DNA from: Eledone cirrhosa
Lineage: Eukaryota
Length of the DNA stretch: 64,000 nt
Direction: 5' to 3'
Assembly (NCBI GenBank): GCA_964016885.1
Contig: OZ024743.1
Span: 38,750,001 to 38,814,000, forward strand
Shown here: positions 35,872 through 63,068 of the stretch, in pieces
How positions within the stretch are numbered: the stretch's first letter is position 1
Layout: every line of letters starts with the position of its first letter
The notes under the pieces: model-generated
Told to the model about the DNA's origin: nothing
Databases searched by the model: none
The model's input: the letters and a program-made list of their open reading frames with translations, nothing else
Program-made: the position numbers and the translations under genes

Positions 35872-36083
35872 TATATATATATACATATATATATATGTAT
35901 GAATGTATATACATCCACACTCACACACACACACACAAATATATATATTAGAAAGTGAGGTTCTTTTACAGAATGAAAAACAACCGAGTTGTCCTACACG
36001 AGTGAAGGTATAAAGAAAAAAAGATGAAATCGAAAATGCAACTGGAGTCTTATTTAAAAAAAATATATATATTTATTTGGTTC

Positions 36084-36119
36084 CTTTACCGGTTTCGCAG
36101 GTCTTCTGTTTTTCAAAAG
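36084..36119 (-). ncRNA. Minimal type-I hammerhead, U3-A8 core variant, with a mismatch at the base of stem II
   Basis: CTT-TTGAAAA-ACAG AAGAC CTGC-GAAA-CCG-GTA-AAG. Confidence 0.6.
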
Positions 36120-37272
36120 TAGAGTTCAGATAGAGGGTCAATGGTTTTTCTCACATCTGGTTGGTCTTTGAATGTTACTTGTTTTATATGGAATAACGTG
36201 ACTCGAAACGTCAGGTTTTTAGAGAAGTAATTTGATTGGTTGTTCAATAAGTGCAATACATTTCGCGCCAGTTCGCGTTACAAAGTTCTTCAAACAAGGG
36301 TGGGAGGTGCTTAGGTTGTTTTTCATATATGAGTGTTTGAATTGCTTTTTCTTAAAAAAAGAGGCCCACGAAGGCTTTTTTTTAAAAAATGGAATCGGAT
36401 TGATTATAAATGAAATTATGGTAGTCAGGTGAACAAGTTCATTACATTTCTCGCTCGTATTTGGGAATTTATTTTGTAGCTTTTTACAGAATTTTATGAC
36501 AATAAAAAGTGGCTCTCGAAGGCTTTTTTAAAAAAAATGCAATTTGATTGGTTATAAATGAAATTATGACTGTCACGTGAACAAGTTCCGCGCCCGTATT
36601 ATTTATTTTGTAGCCATTTAGAGAATTTTATGACAAGCAAAATAATGGTGAATAGAAATGGGATGGGAGAATTGTTCTGGTTCGCTGGGGTGTCAGAGTA
36701 CAGATTTTCTATTGAAATAAAGAAAGTAGACATATGTATGTTTATTTGTGTGTTTGTGTGTGTGTGTGTGTGTGTATAGGAAGATGATTCTATTGGTAGA
36801 AATGGGGGAGGGAGTTGTGTGGGTGTGTGTATATGGGTGTTATGTGTGTGTGTGTGTGTGGGAGTACGTTAAGATGGAGAGAATATATATATTTCGTGTG
36901 CGTGTGTCTGTAGGAAAGTGATTCTATTAGTAGAAATAAGGAGGCAGTTGTGTGTGTGTTGGGGAGGGCGTTATGTGTGTATGTATGGGTGTTATGTGTG
37001 TGTGGGAGTATGGTTAGCATGTTAAAATTGAGAGTTTAGAGGAAATCTCTTTGAGTTCATTTAAGATGTCTTTGTTCATGGAGTTGTTGTTTTGTTGAGA
37101 CTTTGGTGTGATTTTCGGTCTTCGTGTGGTGGGTATGTATTAGAAAGTGTTTTTTTTACAAAATGAAAAATAACCGAAATGTCCTACACGAGTAAAAATA
37201 TAAAGAAAAAAGTTGAAATCGAAAATGCAACTGGAGTATTATTTAAAAAATACATATATATATATTTGGTTC

Positions 37273-37308
37273 CTTTACCGGTTTCGCAGTTCTTCTGCTT
37301 TTCAAAAG
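37273..37308 (-). ncRNA. Minimal type-I hammerhead, U3-A8 core variant
   Basis: CTT-TTGAAAA-GCAG AAGAA CTGC-GAAA-CCG-GTA-AAG, with palindromic stem III ACCGGT. Confidence 0.72.
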
Positions 37309-40199
37309 TAGAGTTGTGATGGAGGGTCTGTGGTTTTTCTCATATCTGGTTGGTCTTTGAATGTTACTTGTTTTATATGGAATAAAGTGGCTCGAAACGC
37401 CAGGTTTTTAGAGAAGTAATTTGTTTGTTTGGTCAATATGTATAATAAATTTCGCGCCAGTTCGCGTTACAAAGTTCTTCAAACAAGAGGAGGGGTGGGG
37501 GTGCTCAGGTTGTTTTTTTCATATATGAGTGTTTGAATTAGTTTTTACTTAAAAAAATTGGCTCACCAAGGCTTTTAAAAAGAAAATGTAATCTGATTGT
37601 TTATAAATGAAATTATGCTGTCACGTGAACAAGTTCATTAAATTTCGCGCCCGTATTTCGGGATTTGTTTTGTAGCCATTTAGAGAATTTTATGACAATA
37701 AAAAGAGGGGCTCACGAAGGCTTTTTTTTAAAATGTAATTTGATTGGTTATAAATGGAATTATGCCTGTTACGTGAATAAGTTCATTAAAATTTCGCGCC
37801 CGTATCTGTGAATTTATTTTGTAGCCTTTTACAGATGGGATGGGAGAATTGTTCTGGTTCTGTGAATAAGGCTAGTTCGCTGGGGTGTCAGAGTACAGAT
37901 TTTCTATTGAAATAAAGAAAGTAGACATATGTATGTTTATTTGTGTGTTTGTGTGTGTGTATGTGTGTGTGTATGTGTGTGTATAGGAAGATGATTCTCT
38001 TGATAGAAATGGAGGAGGGAGTTGTGTGTGTGTGTATATGGGGGTTATGTGTGTGTGTGGGAGTATATTAAGATGGAGAGAATATATATATTTTGTGTGT
38101 GTGTGTATGTGTAGGAAAGCGATTCTATAAGTAGAAAATGGGCAGGTAGTTGTTTGTACGTGTGTGTGTGTGTGTGGGGGGGGGGTTATGTGTGTGTGTA
38201 TGGGTGTTATGTGTATGTGGGAGTATAGTTAGCATGTTAAGATGAAGAGAATATATATTTTGTGCGTGTGTGTGTGTGTGTGTAGAAAATGATTCCGTTA
38301 CTAGGAATATTTTTGAATGAACATATTTCCCTTACTTATACGTATTTGTTATGTTGTATTGTCAGCGCAAACGTATGTTAAGATTTATTTAGTTCGGGGT
38401 TTTATTTTCTAAAGTAGAAGGTGTTATGTGGGTGTGGGTGTGTATGTGTCTGTTTGGTTAGCATGTTATGGTGTTGACGTAATGTATTTTAAACCATAGT
38501 TAATGCTGGTTTATATTTTTGAATAAACATATTTTCCTCATTTATTCCTATTTGTTCTGTTGTATCTTCAGCGCAAAGGTAAAATGGGAAGACTTCGAAT
38601 TTGGGTGTCTTATTACTTGCGCAAATATCTAGATATGCGCTTAGTGGTCTGTCTCGTGGTTGGATCTCGTAATTGTTGGCGATGAACTGTCATTCCATTT
38701 CTGAGTGTGAGTTTAGTTTGTCCTATATAATATTCATTGCATCCTTTACATTTAATGGTATAAAGCAGATTATTTGATGAGCAAGTGAAGTAATTTTTAC
38801 AGCAAAATGTTGTCCTGATTTAAATGTATACGTGTTGCCTTCAATGAGGTGAGTGCAGGTTCCACAATTAAGGCAACCACATTTTTTGACAGTTGGTTGT
38901 GGGTTTATGGTAGGTAATTTGGCATTGGTGAATAATGTTTTCAGTGATTTCGGTTGTCTTTTGATTTTGATTATTTTGTGTGTTTCAATGGCTTTTTTCA
39001 TTCTTGGGTCTTGTTTCAGTAGTGGGATGTTCTTGTGAATAGGGTTGTAAGCTTCCGCATTTCTTGGGTTGTGTGTTGAGATATATGATAGAATATTGGA
39101 CGTACCTTGAATTTGTTTCTGTTTTCGTAATTCATGAATGCCTATTACTTTAGCCCTTTCTATTCCATTATTTATTAGTAAAGGTGGGTACTGTCTTTAG
39201 AGTAGAATTTCCTTTAATTCTTGAAGTCTTTTATTTCACGTTTAATAATTGGAGACAATTGTGCAAATTCTTCTTGCTAGATTAAAAGGAATGTTCGTCT
39301 ATGTGTGATTTGGGTGGTGGGAGGTGAATAGTATATTTTGTTTGGAATCTGTTGGTTTGTAGTGTATGTCAGTTTCAATATTTGCATCTTTTTTTTAAGA
39401 TTAAGATGTCCAGAAATGGGAGTTGATCTTGGCTGTATTCCATTGTGAATTGGATGTGGTTATTGATGCCGTTTATTAAATTTTTGAAATCATTCAGTTG
39501 GTCGAGTGTGTGGGGCCAAATAATGAGACAATCATCCAAGTAGCGTTTCCAATTCTCTGATAAATATTTGTGGAAATTCAATCCGTATTTTGATTTGGAC
39601 TGTTCATAAATATGGACTTCTAAGTATGCCATGACTAAGTTGGCATACGTCGTAGCGGCTTTTGTACCCATCGCAGTCCCCGATATTTGCTTGTAAGTAC
39701 TGCCATCGAAATCAAAAATGTTGTTCTGTAAGATAAATTTTAATCCCTCGGTGATGACGCTTATATATATATTAATATTATCTCACTTCTTAAATTAAAT
39801 ATATTATGTTTAACTGAAATAAGTGTTACTAGAAAACGCAGGACATGATGAGGTCTAAATTTACTTCAGCTAAGACGTCTGGTAGACACAAGTATATATT
39901 GTATAACGAAGTCAATTGGTTCGTATCCTTACACTCTCGAATTTTATTTATTCACTTTGATGATTATACCAACTTAGATATAAGAGTACGCACATTTAGT
40001 TAGTTATTAAATAATTGGCTAGGTGTAGGCAATCGTATCAGTATTCTAATTAAATCCGGACTGCGCTGCATTCTGTGCATAACATGCGCATCAGTAAGTG
40101 CTATTAAGAGAAATAATGTAATATTGCTAAATATTACATAAGTTGGATCAGCCAAGGATTTCCAAGCCAAATACACCAGAAGGGATTATCCAAATGACT

Positions 40200-41308: not shown

Positions 41309-41599
41309 CCTTTGTTTAGCTTTAGTTTTTGCATTGGACTATATTTGTAATATGGTTCAAAATGTTATTGACTTCCTTAGCAATTTTTACTTGATAATTT
41401 TTACCCGATAATTTTCCTATAAATTACCCGATAAATTTCCTAATGTATGTACACTCCATATTCTTCTGAGTTTTTGGCTTGTATTGGCTGATAGTGCTTC
41501 TTATAGCTTTAATTGCCCTGATGAGTCCTTAATAGGACGAAACATTGTTGGTTAATAAAGACTTTTGATGTATTGAAGGCTTCTTTGGTTTATTTTCAT
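41309..41599 (+). mobile_element. 290-bp TA-flanked PLE 3' stub with a hammerhead
   Basis: Bounded by (TA)n, with a hammerhead followed by AATAAA. Confidence 0.7.
41511..41556 (+). ncRNA. Minimal type-I hammerhead ribozyme
   Basis: GCC-CTGATGA(41518-41524)-GTCCT TAAT AGGAC-GAAA-CATTG-TT-GGT. Confidence 0.8.
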
Positions 41600-42021: not shown

Positions 42022-42138
42022 TTATTGACACGTGTTTCTATAACAGTTACATAACCTGAAAACAGCTGCTATCTACAAAGTATTATGCAGACAATCAATA
42101 TTTCAATGTTATTATTTACTGTCATTTCATCAGAATAA
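42022..42138 (-). ncRNA. Type-I hammerhead with ~85-nt stem II (3' pLTR)
   Basis: TTATT-CTGATGA-(ATGACAGT/ACTGTTAT, ATAAC/GTTAT, TGAAA/TTTCA, TTGTCTGCA/TGTAGATAG)-GAAA-CACGTG-TC-AATAA. Confidence 0.82.
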
Positions 42139-42686
42139 TATTACTGAGGACCTGTTTGGTTTTTATAGAGAATATTAGGAGAGAGGGGTGAAGTTGTTAG
42201 AAGAATATTTGAGGGAGTGGTTTTTTTATAGCAGTGAGAATTTTTGGTGGCAGTGAGTAATTAGATTCCCATCTGTTGTTTTGACATATTTATAGAATAT
42301 ATTATTGGTTATTTTTCTAAATCTGTAGAGGGATTAGAGATAGTAAAGATATGCGTGGTTGGTTTAGTGTTTGCACTTAATTAACATTCAGACTTACATT
42401 TTTTCTTTCCAGTGTACGTATCCTTTCACCCACGCATTCTCACAGAAACATATTTGCACCCCTCTACAAAATACATATACTCACATTCACATAGTAACAT
42501 GTTCATACTTACATACATATACACATGCATACATATATATATACACACATGTACTCATGTACATACGTACGCGTTCATGTGTGTACATTTTCATACTCAA
42601 CTTATCTTTATATACACATGTATAGACACACACATATATACATACATACTCTAGTCTATGTGTACATATATACACATACATATACA

Positions 42687-42744
<58 letters not shown>

Positions 42745-43020
42745 CACTTTAATACATGAATACACTTACATCAAACTATACACATCAAACATATATATAT
42801 ATTTACTTATTTATATACATTTTCACATATATATACATACTTATGGTCGCTTTTAGACACATTCATTATGGCATTTTTGCACCTATTCTCATCAGCATAT
42901 CTTTCCATTATTAGTGTGGTAATTTGAGGTTATTAATTTACATATATATGTTGAGAAGAAATTGTTTTTATATTTTTCTAACTAGATTGAGGTTTATATA
43001 GTTGGGGGGATGTCCCTCTT

Positions 43021-43532
43021 TTATGTAATATTCGGCTTGCAGTGGGAAAAAAGGGTTTTAGTTCGGTGACGGCAAAATAATGTTCGTTCAATTCTGTTAT
43101 TCAGCAATTTCTTCTTGTGTGTGATTATGTAATAAATCTCAAGATTACACAATTTGCAGAAATTTTGGCTCCTGGAAAAGCTTTGGGTTTTAGCTAATTT
43201 CTCCCATTTTAGGGTAAACTTTTGATCGCTATCCCTGAGCGTCCAAGCTTTTTCTGCTAAAGTTGTTACATTTCTTTGGCTCTGGTGTTTTATTGAGTAA
43301 GAATGCCTATATAATCGAGATTTAAACGATGTTGCCGTTGATCCCACGTAATACCACTCGTTGCCTCCGGATTTAATGGTACACTTATAAATAATATTTT
43401 TTTCCAGGCAGTTATTGCCGAGGGGGCAGTTGTCAGGATAGGTGCAGTTACAGTTGTGTACGTTGGGTTTTCTCTGGAGTAGTATGGCGGACGAACTTAG
43501 GTGTGGTTTATTTATGTTCTGTAGTGTATTGT
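43021..43532 (-). CDS. PLE linker and GIY-YIG endonuclease, -1 frame relative to the RT ORF
   Basis: HNCNCTYPDNCPLGNNCLEKNIIYKC...YYVGSTATSFKSRLYRH...CKLCNLE...LFCRH, open to the stop at 43021. Confidence 0.9.
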
Positions 43533-45341
43533 CTACTGTTTTTTTGTGTTCTTTGTACTTAAGTTTTTAGTGTTTTCGTTTAACCTTTTAGTATTGATCC
43601 TTTTTATGTGTTGTTCAAGGTTTAACGCTGTAGAGTATGACAGTCTTATAGTGGTAGGGTTTAGGATTTTGTGGTATTTGTGTGATGTAGGAAAATGTCT
43701 CTTAATTATTTTAAAGAAGAGTACTGGTAGATTTGTACTAATGGAACTATTGTATTCGGGGTTATACCATAAGTACTCTTTGCATCGCTTTCGATTTGTT
43801 TTGTTTGTTGGTTTACTGGTGTGCATACTATGGTAGTAAGTGTGGTTTGGTGTTGTGTTATTATATCTACCTATGTGGGATTTATTTTGGGTGTTTTGAT
43901 TGTTCCCATCTATATACTCTATTTTGTTGAGGTGGCCTGCTTTACCAAGGGCGTTATCGTAGTATTCGGCGTGTTCCTTAAATACTTGTATGTTAGAAGA
44001 TAGACCCGAGATTCTAAGGGAAATACTTTTAGGGATAGATTTAATTATAGAGATGGGGTGGTTAGACCCAACATTTACGTATTTGAGATTTTCATTCAAA
44101 TTATGAAACGGTTTAATCAGACCAGAGTTTAAATTGAGTGTGACATCAAGGAAGTTAACTACTTTAAGGTTGTATTCATATGTTATAGTTAGTCCTATTT
44201 CGAGTAGTAGTTTTCTTTTATCTTTGCGTAGTTTTTCTAGTTTTTGGTTATTTAGGTTTTTAACTAGGAGGAGAACATTGTCGCGGTATATTCCGCCGTG
44301 GAGATTGCTGAATTTTTCCTGGAGTCTAAAGGCGATAAATAACCCCACAATATCAGTTATTTCCGCCGAATCGTTAGAGCCCATTGTTATGTCAAAGTTA
44401 GAGGGTCTATCTTTACGTACCCAATAACTGTTCTCAAATTTGACTATAGTTTTCCTAGCTTCTAATATAATCTTAATTTCATCGTTTGTAAGGTCAGAGT
44501 TATCCTTAGCAAACTTAATGGCTCTATTCAAAGTTTCAGGTGATATCGATGAGTAATATTCATCGATATCAAACTGGATAAACTTAGATTTATTCTTATT
44601 GCTAATGCTATTAAACCATCTTATTGCTTCTTGGGTCTTCCCCCAGAGTTTAATGTTAACCTTAGCCTTAATTTGGGGGATAATTCTATCCAAGATATAT
44701 TTGCTTATTTTACCTATATCTGATTTAGAGGGGCAGATTAATCTAATTTTAGGGTCGTTATCAAAGTTTACCTTATGGTCCTTAAGATTGAAGGTGGGTA
44801 CCGCCGGTAAGAGTGGTCCTGTCCTATCTTCGATTCCGAGATTTTTCACTATTTCGCATGCCTCATCATTGATGTGCTTAAGAGTTACTTCATTCGTTTT
44901 TCTATATTTTTTATGTAATTCTTCTCGAATGAAGTTGTTGTATGTAGTGCAATCCATAGTATACAGGTTTGATGTTTTGTCCGCTTTTACTACGATTCCT
45001 TTGGTGTTTTTAAGGTCGTCCAGTAGTTTTTTTATATCTTTCTGTAATTTGTTGTTGGTGTTACGTCCTTTGCATTTAATTTTAAGGATTAAGTTCATAA
45101 GGTCCTGCTCAAATGCATCTAATAGTGGGTTGGTGGGTGGGTTTTTACACGTTCTAAAACCGAATTTGTTGTTTACACCACTTTCCAATGGTGAGTTCAT
45201 ACGGCTTCTATCATAGTGGAACGTTTTCCACCTGACATGTCGAATGAATTCATTAGTTTTTTGAATCATACTCAATAAGTATTCCTTTTTACCTTGGGTT
45301 GGTATGTCTTTGAGTGACATATCCAGGTAGTGTTTTTCCAT
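43533..45341 (-). CDS. PLE reverse transcriptase (602 aa), catalytic YRDD changed to YRDN
   Basis: KADKT, LKDHK, IRLICP, FIQFDIDEYYSSI, FDITMGSNDSAE, GGIYRDN, VNFLDVTL, YVNVGSNHP, LWYNPEY. Confidence 0.95.
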   Translation of the reverse strand: MEKHYLDMSLKDIPTQGKKEYLLSMIQKTNEFIRHVRWKTFHYDRSRMNSPLESGVNNKFGFRTCKNPPTNPLLDAFEQDLMNLILKIKCKGRNTNNKLQKDIKKLLDDLKNTKGIVVKADKTSNLYTMDCTTYNNFIREELHKKYRKTNEVTLKHINDEACEIVKNLGIEDRTGPLLPAVPTFNLKDHKVNFDNDPKIRLICPSKSDIGKISKYILDRIIPQIKAKVNIKLWGKTQEAIRWFNSISNKNKSKFIQFDIDEYYSSISPETLNRAIKFAKDNSDLTNDEIKIILEARKTIVKFENSYWVRKDRPSNFDITMGSNDSAEITDIVGLFIAFRLQEKFSNLHGGIYRDNVLLLVKNLNNQKLEKLRKDKRKLLLEIGLTITYEYNLKVVNFLDVTLNLNSGLIKPFHNLNENLKYVNVGSNHPISIIKSIPKSISLRISGLSSNIQVFKEHAEYYDNALGKAGHLNKIEYIDGNNQNTQNKSHIGRYNNTTPNHTYYHSMHTSKPTNKTNRKRCKEYLWYNPEYNSSISTNLPVLFFKIIKRHFPTSHKYHKILNPTTIRLSYSTALNLEQHIKRINTKRLNENTKNLSTKNTKKQ

Positions 45342-45545
45342 TGTTGTGGTTGCGTTTGCTGTGTGGGTTGCTCGACTTTACAGGAGGTAAATATACAGTA
45401 TTTTCCGTTGTGTTGTAATATAAATATTACACACAGTAGATTGACAGCTCACGTAGAGTTTGCTCGACGGTTCCAGTTGAAATTCCAAAAGTAATCCGGA
45501 GAAAAATAGAAAAATCTGAATGGATACAGTTTAGTTGAAAGGAAT

Positions 45546-45662
45546 TTATTGACACGTGTTTCTATAACAGTTACATAACCTGAAAACAGCTGCTATCTAC
45601 AAAGTATTATGCAGACAATCAATATTTCAATGTTATTATTTACTGTCATTTCATCAGAATAA
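45546..45662 (-). ncRNA. Type-I hammerhead with long stem II (5' pLTR), ~210 nt upstream of the RT ATG
   Basis: Same sequence and fold as 42022-42138. Confidence 0.82.
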
Positions 45663-45823
45663 TATTACTGAGGACCTGTTTGGTTTTTATAGAGAATGTT
45701 AGGAGAGAGGGGTGAAGTTGTTAGAAGAATAGTTGAGGGAGTGGTTTTTTGATAGCAGTGAGAATGTTTGGTGGCAGTGAGTAATTAGATTCCCATCTGT
45801 TGTTTTGACATATTTATAGAATA

Positions 45824-55059: not shown

Positions 55060-55133
55060 TCACCTGATGAGATCAGTGATAATCGATCATGATTTCACAA
55101 TCGATCTATCTCTTATTGAAACATGTGTCGTGA
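55060..55133 (+). ncRNA. Type-I hammerhead with ~47-nt imperfect stem II
   Basis: TCAC-CTGATGA(55064-55070)...GAAA(55118-55121)-CATGTG-TC-GTGA. Confidence 0.8.
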
Positions 55134-56184: not shown

Positions 56185-56560
56185 TTAGCTTGGGTTTTCT
56201 TTGATTTTTCTCTTGATTTCTCTTGGGCTGTGTAATTTGTAGACTTGGAATATTATAAATATTCCCTGACCACATGTTGCTAGATGGTTACTTAGGGGTA
56301 TCTGACGGACATTTGGGTCTCTGATTTGTTGACGGTGTACCCGTGCACGTTCCGATAGTGCATTTCCAGTTTGACCGACATATAGTTTTTCACAATTCGG
56401 GCATTTAATGCAGTAAATTAGAATTCTGCTTTTGTAGTTCATATTTGCATTTGGGAATATTTTTCCAGTTTTTGTTTTCATATATTGAACGGCGTGTATG
56501 GATTGACATGTGTCGCATCGACTATCATTGCATTTAGATACAGTGAATGATTGCCTGATT
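56185..56560 (-). mobile_element. PLE GIY-YIG fragment, Neptune-like
   Basis: KCNDSRCDTC...LIYCIKCPNCEKLYVGQTG..LSERARVHRQQI...LSNHLATC. Confidence 0.85.
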
Positions 56561-61052: not shown

Positions 61053-61060
<8 letters not shown>

Positions 61061-61459
61061 TAAATCATGTCCTTAAAATTATTAAATAAAATATGTACCA
61101 TTTCCTCTCCCAATTAGCATAATTAACCATATAAAAAATCAATTAGACCAGGTTATAATAATAAAAGGCTCCTATGAAGAAATTTCCGACAAATAACCGA
61201 AAGCGGCCTCTTCGCGGTGGCCCCAATAGAGTATTTATCCACCACGAAGAGGCCGCTTTCGGTTATTTGTCGGAAATTTCTTCATAGGAGCCTTTATTCT
61301 TATAGCCTGGTCTAATTGATTTGTTATATGGTTAATTATGCTAATTGGGAGAGGAAATTGTATATATTTTATCTAATAATTCTAAGGACATGATTTATGA
61401 TATATTGCTCTGATTATTTAATTTATTAATTCTTCATTGAGCCACAACGTGACCGGTTG

Positions 61460-61799: not shown

Positions 61800-63007
61800 A
61801 AACACAAACCTTACAAAATACACTGTTAAACCTGGTGGAAGTTGAGCACAGAAACCTTCCGACACTGTAACTGTGTCCCTTCAACAAAGAAATATATTCT
61901 TCGCCATTATTATCTTGGAGGTCCCAGATGTGGCCCGAAAGTGTAGTGGCATGTCGACGGGAGGACGCCGTCCGTGTAACTTATGCTCGGAGGAAACATT
62001 AGAAATGTTGTTTTCGAAGGACCAACTCCTAAACAAGAAAGACGAACTGGTAACGGCATGCAAACGCAGATTGCGTAGGACTTAACTCGCCCTCAAACCC
62101 CATAACGACCTGGGTGGGTAGACAAGGGATGATGCCCCTCCCCCCACACAAACACTTGCCGAATAAGTTAGGGGATTCCAGCTTACATAGGTAGATGTAT
62201 CTCTTTTTTTTTCTTTTCCTCATTGCCTTCTTCCCCCTGTCTCATCCTATCACTTACTTTCACCCCCTATTTTCTTCCTCGTCTGCTTTTCCCCTTTCGC
62301 CTACCCCGATGCAGCCCATAGGGCCTCTGTAGCATCTGTACCCCCACCCATGTAGTTTTAAGATAGATTTGGCCGAATACGTTTTACTAACTACTTATAG
62401 CAGACGTGTTAAACCCCTTTTATTTTTGTATCAGTTTGGGTACTACTCAATTTCTACAAGTGTTTTCTATTCTCAACTTATTAACCTGTAATTGTAAGAT
62501 AGCATTTTAATTTTTTTTTATTCATTTCTCACTATCTAATTTTATATATTATTTTTATTTCTTTATATTAATTTTTATTGTCTCCTACTCTTATCTGATT
62601 TACTATTCTATAACCTCCCTCCTCCACTTCATACACTATCCTTAGAATCTGCTGTATATATATCACTTTCAACGCTTGGCCGCTCCTCTCACTCCTCTAT
62701 TGTTCTACAGGCAAATTCAGCCACCCCTACCTCCCACCAAATGCCATGATAGACTTATTTGTGTTTACAACACATTTTAACCAATCCTCTTGACTTCAAT
62801 CTTCAATCTTCCCATATAAGGAAGTACCCCCTTGACAAGTTCGGCTATTTATTCACCAGACTAACAATTCTAATTTAGTCCAGAAATAGCTGTCGAAACG
62901 GCTTGAGCTCTGCCGTCGGGGTCATACTTTTTCCTATTCCCACGCTACTAAGTATTAAGTACTCTGGTGTGTTATGGTCCATCCGGTTCCTTACCACATT
63001 TCCTTTG

Positions 63008-63009
<2 letters not shown>
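61800..63009 (+). mobile_element. PLE 3' fragment (GIY-YIG C-terminus, 3' UTR, hammerhead)
   Basis: GRRPCNLCSEETLEM...LLNKKDELVTACKR. Ends in (TA)n. Confidence 0.8.
62828..62921 (+). ncRNA. Type-I hammerhead, U3-A8 core variant, long stem II
   Basis: CCCC-TTGACAA(62832-62838)-stem II (CGGCTATTT/AAATAGCTG, GACTAA/TTAGTC)-GAAA(62895-62898)-CGGC TTGAGCTCT GCCG-TC-GGGG. Confidence 0.8.

Positions 63010-63068
<59 letters not shown>

What the first reader, a model, noticed from the sequence alone, without database searches (positions are those of the whole stretch)
62828..62921. Second, independent U3-A8 hammerhead with well-paired stems I and III
Seen: TTGACAA core, 4 G-C pairs in stem I, a 5-bp stem III with a GAGCTC palindrome in its loop, a GUC triplet and a 56-nt stem II. 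It lies ~90 nt from the 3' end of a PLE of a different type than the 36-37 kb element. The same double substitution in two unrelated families within 64 kb suggests variant-core hammerheads are common and under-annotated in this genome.
Basis: partly seen in the sequence, partly recalled or inferred. Interest (0 to 1): 0.78.

Follow-up and report, generated by a model that had tools for sequence, protein, structure and literature searches.

The report
Penelope hammerhead with drifting core pair
This is a real hammerhead-ribozyme motif at the end of a broken jumping gene with thousands of copies, and its U-A core pair is already in print; the one odd thing is that a third of the related copies carry a mismatched C-A pair that would be expected to cripple self-cutting, yet that lineage kept multiplying.

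Summary
The motif is there as described (62828-62921, +) and beats chance (0 of 60 shuffles). It is the type I hammerhead in the terminal repeat of a Hydra-clade Penelope-like retrotransposon. The window holds a 5'-truncated 1.1-kb copy. U3-A8 is the family norm: 37 of 37 nearest copies have it, and only 15 of 5,479 cores in the clade are C3-G8. The 36-39 kb element is Neptune-type, so 'independent' holds. U3-A8 itself is not new: it was reported in nature in 2011 and in Penelope-like elements in 2014, and this scan noted it before on other genomes. Across subfamilies, 12 other core positions, stems I and III and the palindrome are fixed and stem II covaries, but pair 3-8 drifts. 1,764 of 5,479 cores are C3·A8, and two markers give a ladder U-A, then C·A, then U-A again. 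A published CUGANAA hammerhead was inactive, so cleavage is either dispensable for copying or the core tolerates a wobble. Cleavage is untested and no RNA run was listed. Verdict: new member of a known kind, with a testable side observation.

The parts
62828..62921 (+). Type I hammerhead motif, U3-A8 core
62821..62826 (+). Distal stem I, 5' strand (predicted to pair with 62925-62930)
   Evidence: no covariation shown
62828..62831 (+). Stem I 5' strand, pairs with 62918-62921
   Evidence: 93% of cells paired in 49 copies
62832..62838 (+). Core U3 U4 G5 A6 C7 A8 A9
62839..62894 (+). Stem II: G10.1-C11.1, UU/U internal loop, 9-bp helix 62842-50 with 62884-92, variable distal loop or hairpin
   Evidence: 3 pairs with changes on both sides
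62895..62898 (+). G12 A13 A14 A15.1
62898..62916 (+). Stem III (5 bp) and 9-nt loop with GAGCUC palindrome at 62905-62910
62917..62917 (+). C17; predicted cleavage 3' of this base
   Evidence: inferred from hammerhead numbering; untested
61957..62937 (+). 5'-truncated Hydra-clade Penelope-like element: end of the endonuclease frame (stop at 62083-85), 3' UTR and terminal repeat
62938..63009 (+). Penelope 'tail' (start of the next unit's 5' region), followed by (TA)n
61906..61960 (-). Inverted piece of the endonuclease gene (5' inversion with about 48 nt lost)

Best explanation
The motif is the type I hammerhead carried in the terminal repeat of a high-copy Hydra-clade Penelope-like retrotransposon, and it likely cuts the element's RNA slowly after C62917, probably as a dimer or with protein help. 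Shown: the anatomy, the element, family-wide U3-A8, conservation of the core and stems across subfamilies, and compensatory changes in stem II. Inferred: in tandem copies the upstream repeat is transcribed, the hammerhead folds with U3-A8 in place of C3-G8 to position nucleotide 8, and cleavage would trim the precursor about 190 nt before the reading frame. Inferred: activity is low or gated. Predicted monomer folds mostly hide the core, palindrome pairing between two copies would favour the active fold, and inserted copies read straight through the cut site, so the reverse-transcribed template was uncut or rejoined. Weak dependence on fast cleavage would explain why pair 3-8 could drift through pyrimidine-purine mismatches (C·A, U·G). 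The window's own copy is a lone truncated insertion with an intact core and is likely not mobile.
For: 37 of 37 nearest copies have U3 and A8. 1,511 exact UUGA[A/C]AA 20-mers genome-wide, 0 for the reversed control. N7 takes all four bases among the first 100 of 5,479 cores, as expected for the free position. Among five hand-picked subfamily groups, 2 of 36 core, stem I, stem III and palindrome columns vary (positions 3 and 8) against 20 of 33 loop II columns (Fisher p 1e-6). Stem II has 3 pairs changed on both sides; 91.5% of cells pair against 29-51% for slid controls. The element carries RWR, DKT, CxCx5C, CxxC and CxH motifs and (TA)n targets. Insertions end 17-19 nt (128 of 160) or about 97 nt (98 of 149) past the cut site, matching the two reverse-transcription starts described in PMC11167929. 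U3-A8 is described as active in vitro and natural (PMC3088659) and present in Penelope-like elements (PMC4209133). Duplex formation through stem III gains about 7 kcal/mol per monomer in the model.
Against: No cleavage assay exists. The active fold is only about 1% of the predicted monomer ensemble for the window copy and 0.3-7% for five relatives; RNAalifold prefers a non-hammerhead fold. [quoted passage not shown] Stems I and III show no two-sided change, and two of five whole-structure measures do not beat shuffles. The stem II changes trace to few events between related subfamilies. 1,764 of 5,479 cores are C3·A8, which shows that a Watson-Crick 3-8 pair was not needed for amplification.
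Confidence: 0.7

Rival explanations
1. The hammerhead fold is kept as a structural signal (protein binding or positioning of reverse-transcription starts) and cleavage is vestigial in this clade. Pair 3-8, which matters mainly for chemistry, is therefore free to drift.
For: A C3·A8 lineage produced at least 1,764 core-bearing copies through several successive subfamilies. A natural CUGANAA hammerhead was inactive (PMC8490949). Hammerhead mutants did not affect insertion by an anole element in vitro (PMC11167929). Insertions span the cut site. The repeat ends right at the end of the extended stem I.
Against: G12, G5, A6, A9, A13, A14, U16.1 and C17 do not vary among five subfamily groups while loop II turns over. 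Only transitions are fixed at positions 3 and 8. The youngest branch regained U3-A8.
Confidence: 0.2
2. Pair 3-8 is always functionally formed. In the C3 lineage the core shifts register: C3 pairs with the G at position 7, the spacer nucleotide is lost, and the spare A becomes the extra nucleotide before G10.1 that is common in Penelope hammerheads.
For: 95 of the first 100 C3·A8 cores are CUGAGAA, while U3-A8 cores use all four bases at position 7. An extra nucleotide between 9 and 10.1 is a described feature of these motifs (PMC4209133).
Against: G7 can be simple co-inheritance. It also occurs in U3 copies just below and above the C3 grade, and the grade is short (about 0.05 changes per site), so zero changes at position 7 is not unexpected. 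I know of no active hammerhead lacking N7 (recalled, not searched to exhaustion).
Confidence: 0.08
3. The motif is a chance arrangement or a decayed canonical hammerhead peculiar to this copy.
For: Rfam gives no hammerhead match here; folding z-score only -1.85.
Against: 0 of 60 shuffles; thousands of copies with the same core; 0 matches to a canonical-core version of the family pattern; only 15 of 5,479 cores are C3-G8.
Confidence: 0.02

Closest known systems
U3-A8 minimal hammerheads of Cercyon Penelope-like elements, Schistosoma mansoni (Cervera and De la Pena 2014, PMC4209133)
   Same: Type I topology in the terminal repeat of a Penelope-like element; U3-A8 core (about 1,300 hits reported); 4-5 bp stem I; G10.1-C11.1; palindromic loop III.
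   Different: Here stem III is 5 bp with a 9-nt loop, not minimal. Stem II is 56 nt with an internal loop after the first pair. There is no extra nucleotide before G10.1. The host element is Hydra-clade.
Natural U3-A8 core variants (Perreault et al. 2011, PMC3088659)
   Same: Same compensatory swap at positions 3 and 8, described there as natural and previously shown active in vitro.
   Different: Rare variants there; here the ancestral and majority state of a whole transposon clade, with mismatched C·A and U·G lineages beside it.
Hammerheads of Hydra-clade Penelope-like elements (Craig et al. 2021, PMC8557442, File S2)
   Same: Same clade motifs, (TA)n target, hammerhead near the 3' end, stem III of several pairs.
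   Different: All 26 listed rows have CUGANGA cores and short stems II; none has U3-A8 or C3·A8.
Poseidon hammerhead of Anolis carolinensis (Frangieh et al. 2024, PMC11167929)
   Same: Hammerhead at the repeat-ORF junction; two insertion end points that define a tail.
   Different: C3-G8 core there, overlapping the start codon, and tested (protein-assisted, not needed for insertion in vitro). Here it lies about 190 nt before the frame and is untested.

Membership tests
Type I hammerhead ribozyme | Three helices around a core, stem I open | tested here: met
Type I hammerhead ribozyme | Invariant U4 G5 A6, A9, G12 A13 A14, A15.1-U16.1, H17 | tested here: met
   all present; fixed among five subfamily groups
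Type I hammerhead ribozyme | Watson-Crick pair between positions 3 and 8 | tested here: met
   U3-A8 in the window copy and 37 of 37 nearest copies; not met in 1,764 C3·A8 relatives
Type I hammerhead ribozyme | Literal CUGANGA consensus or Rfam hammerhead model score | tested here: not met
   no hammerhead match at E up to 10 over 62700-63010
Type I hammerhead ribozyme | Covariation supporting the helices | tested here: inconclusive
   3 two-sided pairs in stem II; stems I and III conserved without two-sided change
Type I hammerhead ribozyme | [quoted passage not shown] | not tested
   internal loops exist in both stems; no contact was modelled
Type I hammerhead ribozyme | Site-specific self-cleavage | not testable with these tools
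   needs an in vitro assay
Minimal (obligate-dimer) hammerheads of metazoan Penelope-like elements | Absent or 1-2 bp stem III | tested here: not met
   5-bp stem III, -6.5 kcal/mol as a hairpin
Minimal (obligate-dimer) hammerheads of metazoan Penelope-like elements | Palindromic loop III and position in the terminal repeat | tested here: met
   GAGCUC fixed in five groups; 20 nt from the repeat end
Hydra clade of Penelope-like elements | RWK and DKT motifs, CxCx5C linker, C-terminal GIY-YIG with CxxC and CxH around E and N | tested here: met
   L073 frame: RWR, DKT, CNCPDRSIC, VIY..YIG, CNLC, CKH
Hydra clade of Penelope-like elements | Insertion into (TA)n, tail, inverted or tandem copies | tested here: met
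Hydra clade of Penelope-like elements | Phylogenetic placement among named Hydra proteins | not tested
   assignment rests on motifs; Pfam and PDB searches gave no match

The most novel reading that the evidence does not exclude
This transposon clade is a natural experiment on the hammerhead's 3-8 pair: its master lineage went U-A, then C·A for several successive subfamilies and over 1,700 surviving copies, then back to U-A, with smaller U·G and C-G side branches, while every other core position stayed fixed. In this architecture the ribozyme works with any pyrimidine-purine 3-8 combination (or a register-shifted CUGA-GA core), widening the hammerhead consensus to YUGANRA, and the return to U-A records selection for cleavage.
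Probability: 0.2. Interest if true: 0.62.

Novelty: new member of a known kind. Interest (0 to 1): 0.33.

Why it matters
The U3-A8 motif alone adds a host clade to a known variant. The family around it matters more. Whether Penelope-like elements need their hammerheads is open: one in vitro study found cleavage unnecessary for insertion. Here sister subfamilies differ at the one tertiary base pair of the core, and one of them has a core of a type reported inactive, yet it amplified. Comparing their cleavage rates would show directly whether a lineage can spread with a silent ribozyme, or whether the accepted core consensus is too narrow. Practically, descriptors that demand CUGANGA miss all but 15 of the 5,479 cores counted here.

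Tried and rejected
Rfam found no hammerhead at the site; its only hammerhead hit in the window is a sub-threshold one at 41512-41556. Pfam gave nothing for the element's 710-aa frame and PDB no match, so clade assignment rests on motifs. No RNA holder was listed; this is no evidence on expression. Three runs of unknown kind, one sample, were laid as contigs and only repeat the genomic picture. My first reading of a continuous frame across 61906-61960 was wrong: that piece is inverted relative to the family. A C3-G8 ancestral subfamily was looked for and not found: 0 matches and 15 scattered copies. About 10 of the 15 fit post-insertion A-to-G changes in C3·A8 copies (my estimate); a few sit in an old U·G/C-G side branch. 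An 'off' fold pairing A9-G10.1-Y-U-C with the loop III palindrome is attractive as a dimer-released switch. It has no two-sided change and its predicted probability runs from 0.00 to 1.00 across copies (0.03 in the window copy), so I do not claim it. G7 linkage with C3 could not be separated from co-inheritance. Four papers likely to hold data on 3-8 mismatches were not held: Lunse et al. 2017, Przybilski and Hammann 2007, Nelson and Uhlenbeck 2008, two papers. An octopus-like host was my guess from genome size and repeat content; it was not tested and nothing rests on it.

Full report
Observation. A strict descriptor finds it once in the window and 0 times in 60 block-wise dinucleotide shuffles; a relaxed one finds 7 cores against a mean of 0.9. 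Both descriptors were written after seeing the motif. Folding energy alone is weak evidence (z -1.85). Rfam gives no hammerhead match at the site.

The element. A search of the window's own 3.0-Gb genome with 62700-63010 gave 3,371 first-look candidates, 40 scored. The window copy runs 61957-62937, plus a tail to about 63009 and an inverted endonuclease fragment at 61906-61960. [quoted passage not shown] The 710-aa frame of L073 has RWR, DKT, CNCPDRSIC, VIY..YIG, CNLC and CKH, the motifs that define the Hydra clade in Craig et al. 2021 (PMC8557442, section 11 read). Placement is by motif, not by tree. Of 339 distinct copies in my loci, 160 end directly in a simple repeat (128 of them 17 or 19 nt past the cut site), 163 carry a tail (98 of 149 measurable ones end at +97) and 16 are other. 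This matches the two reverse-transcription starts that define the tail in Frangieh et al. 2024 (PMC11167929, parts 1-2 of 4 read). It also means the copied RNA was uncut or rejoined at the hammerhead site (inference).

Independence from the 36-39 kb element. That element lies on the minus strand, with a minimal U3-A8 motif at 37305 (and a weaker copy near 36.1 kb) and a CxxxxCxxC-linker endonuclease at 38490-39196, i.e. Neptune-type by the definitions. It has 2,005 first-look candidates and shares no DNA similarity with the 62-kb element beyond 20-nt matches. The window's other Hydra-clade element (43.0-45.7 kb, 40% identical over 570 aa) has CUGAUGA cores, as do, in CUGANGA form, all 26 Hydra-type rows of Craig's File S2. 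Two separate origins of U3-A8 are therefore likely.

Family-wide core. 37 of 37 aligned nearest copies have U3 and A8 (29 UUGACAA, 7 UUGAAAA, 1 UUGACAU); these are the best scorers, so biased towards the query. Exact pattern counts are less biased. A pattern with positions 3, 7 and 8 free gives 5,479 matches and 0 for its reversed control. Of these, 73 have G8 (15 C3-G8, 56 U3·G8, 2 A3) and 1,764 have C3·A8, leaving at most 3,642 U3-A8. In the first 100 listed, 68 are U3-A8, 30 C3·A8 and 2 U3·G8, and position 7 takes all four bases. These counts are repeat ends, often two per insertion, and miss copies with other changes. A more distant subfamily with a quite different loop II is also mostly UUGAUAA.

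Selection on the fold. In 49 copies that I picked to span the tree, 91.5% of cells pair against 29-51% for slid controls, and three stem II pairs change on both sides. Stems I and III show no two-sided change, and two of five measures do not beat shuffles. Among five hand-picked subfamily groups (32 of the 49 rows), 2 of 36 core, stem I, stem III and palindrome columns vary, namely positions 3 and 8, against 20 of 33 loop II columns (p 1e-6; the G8 majority in one group comes from rows chosen by the G8 search). The groups are related, so the p-value overstates independence. RNAalifold prefers a non-hammerhead fold, and the active fold is about 1% of the predicted monomer ensemble of the window copy. 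Pairing of two stem III regions through the palindrome gains about 7 kcal/mol per monomer in the model, ignoring concentration.

The drifting 3-8 pair. A tree of 162 of 184 collected repeat ends (22 dropped for lacking upstream flank or a readable core; positions 3, 7, 8 masked) shows U3 in the deep branches, C3·A8 as a grade of successive subfamilies, and a U3-A8 clade nested inside it at 100/100 (bootstrap not converged). The endonuclease region 0.7-1.3 kb upstream repeats this with 49 rows and 43 rows (nested clade 100/99), and rejects a single C3 clade (AU p 2e-5; the group was named by core state but after I had seen the trees). The root depends on one or two outgroup rows in the endonuclease trees and on the longer end branches of the outgroup; recombination was not tested. 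The simplest history is U-A, then C·A, then U-A. Small U3·G8 clades also appear. 95 of the first 100 C3·A8 cores have G7, which allows a register-shift reading but is also explained by co-inheritance.

How it most likely works. From established hammerhead chemistry (own knowledge; consistent with passages), G12 acts as base and the 2'-OH of nucleotide 8, positioned by the 3-8 pair, as acid, so U-A can replace C-G. In a tandem copy (L086) the cut site lies about 190 nt before the reading frame, so cleavage would trim the precursor RNA. Published metazoan Penelope hammerheads are slow, dimer-dependent or protein-assisted, and mutants of one did not block insertion in vitro. I put 0.7 on a slow, gated but functional ribozyme, 0.2 on a structural signal with vestigial chemistry, and 0.08 on an always-paired core with a register shift in the C3 lineage. 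Against easy optimism: in a pairwise mutagenesis only the G-C swap rescued this pair (PMC9901934, passages), and a natural CUGANAA motif did not cut (PMC8490949, passages).

Comparison and novelty. U3-A8 was reported in nature by Perreault et al. 2011 (PMC3088659, parts 2-3 of 8 read) and in Penelope-like elements by Cervera and De la Pena 2014, about 1,300 hits in Schistosoma (PMC4209133, parts 1-2 of 4 read; one of two supplements could not be searched). Earlier notes of this scan list the same variant in other genomes (unchecked AI notes, found after I had the papers). I also read part 1 of 5 of bioRxiv 10.64898/2026.07.22.740005, passages and one section part of PMC6765202, and passages of PMC7151607 and PMC3884650. 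I found no report of an amplified C3·A8 lineage in searches or in the scan's notes. Four key papers were not held, Lunse et al. 2017 on Penelope hammerhead variants above all, so absence from print is not established.

Verdict.

Noticed in passing
G000-wide; e.g. L075, L078, L083: A sister lineage with a mismatched C3·A8 core (mostly CUGAGAA) has 1,764 matches; a younger U3-A8 clade (L073, L081, L086, L088) nests inside it.
   Followed up: yes
window 36040-39196 (-): Neptune-type Penelope-like element with a minimal U3-A8 hammerhead at 37305 (4-bp stem II, palindromic CCGG) and a second copy near 36.1 kb; 2,005 first-look candidates; all 25 fetched loci show the same core.
   Followed up: partly
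window 42040-45700 (-): Second Hydra-clade element (614-aa and 181-aa frames) with two identical minimal CUGAUGA hammerhead motifs at 45657 and 42133.
   Followed up: partly
window 41507-41556 (+): Degenerate CUGAUGA hammerhead, Rfam RF00163 28.4 bits (below the 34-bit threshold), followed by (TA)n.
   Followed up: no
L121-L145; window 62876-62940: Many insertions of this clade are tiny 3'-end or fold-back fragments with only the GAAA/stem III half: 4 of 45 such halves had the core half, and contig depth there is about 40 times that at the core.
   Followed up: partly
L079, L198, L199, L206, L207, L220; L202, L208, L209, L216: Small subfamilies with a U3·G8 core, one of which also holds C3-G8 copies (L201, L205).
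   Followed up: partly
alignment A1 columns 27-31 with 99-103 (window 62838-62842 with 62905-62909): A9-G10.1-Y-U-C is complementary to the loop III palindrome in all subfamilies; a possible off-state released by dimerisation, without two-sided covariation.
   Followed up: partly
window 61053-61405: 350-nt fold-back (arms of about 170 nt, 94-98% complementary, 18-nt spacer) between (TA)n runs; looks like an inverted 3'-end insertion of another family.
   Followed up: no
window 56188-56559 (-): Further GIY-YIG endonuclease fragment (Pfam PF01541, E 1.3e-5); a CUGAUGA hammerhead-like match lies at 55064 (+).
   Followed up: no
L071-L089: The distance from endonuclease end to hammerhead grows along the subfamily ladder, from about 690 nt in the window's subfamily to 1,000-1,280 nt in later ones.
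   Followed up: no
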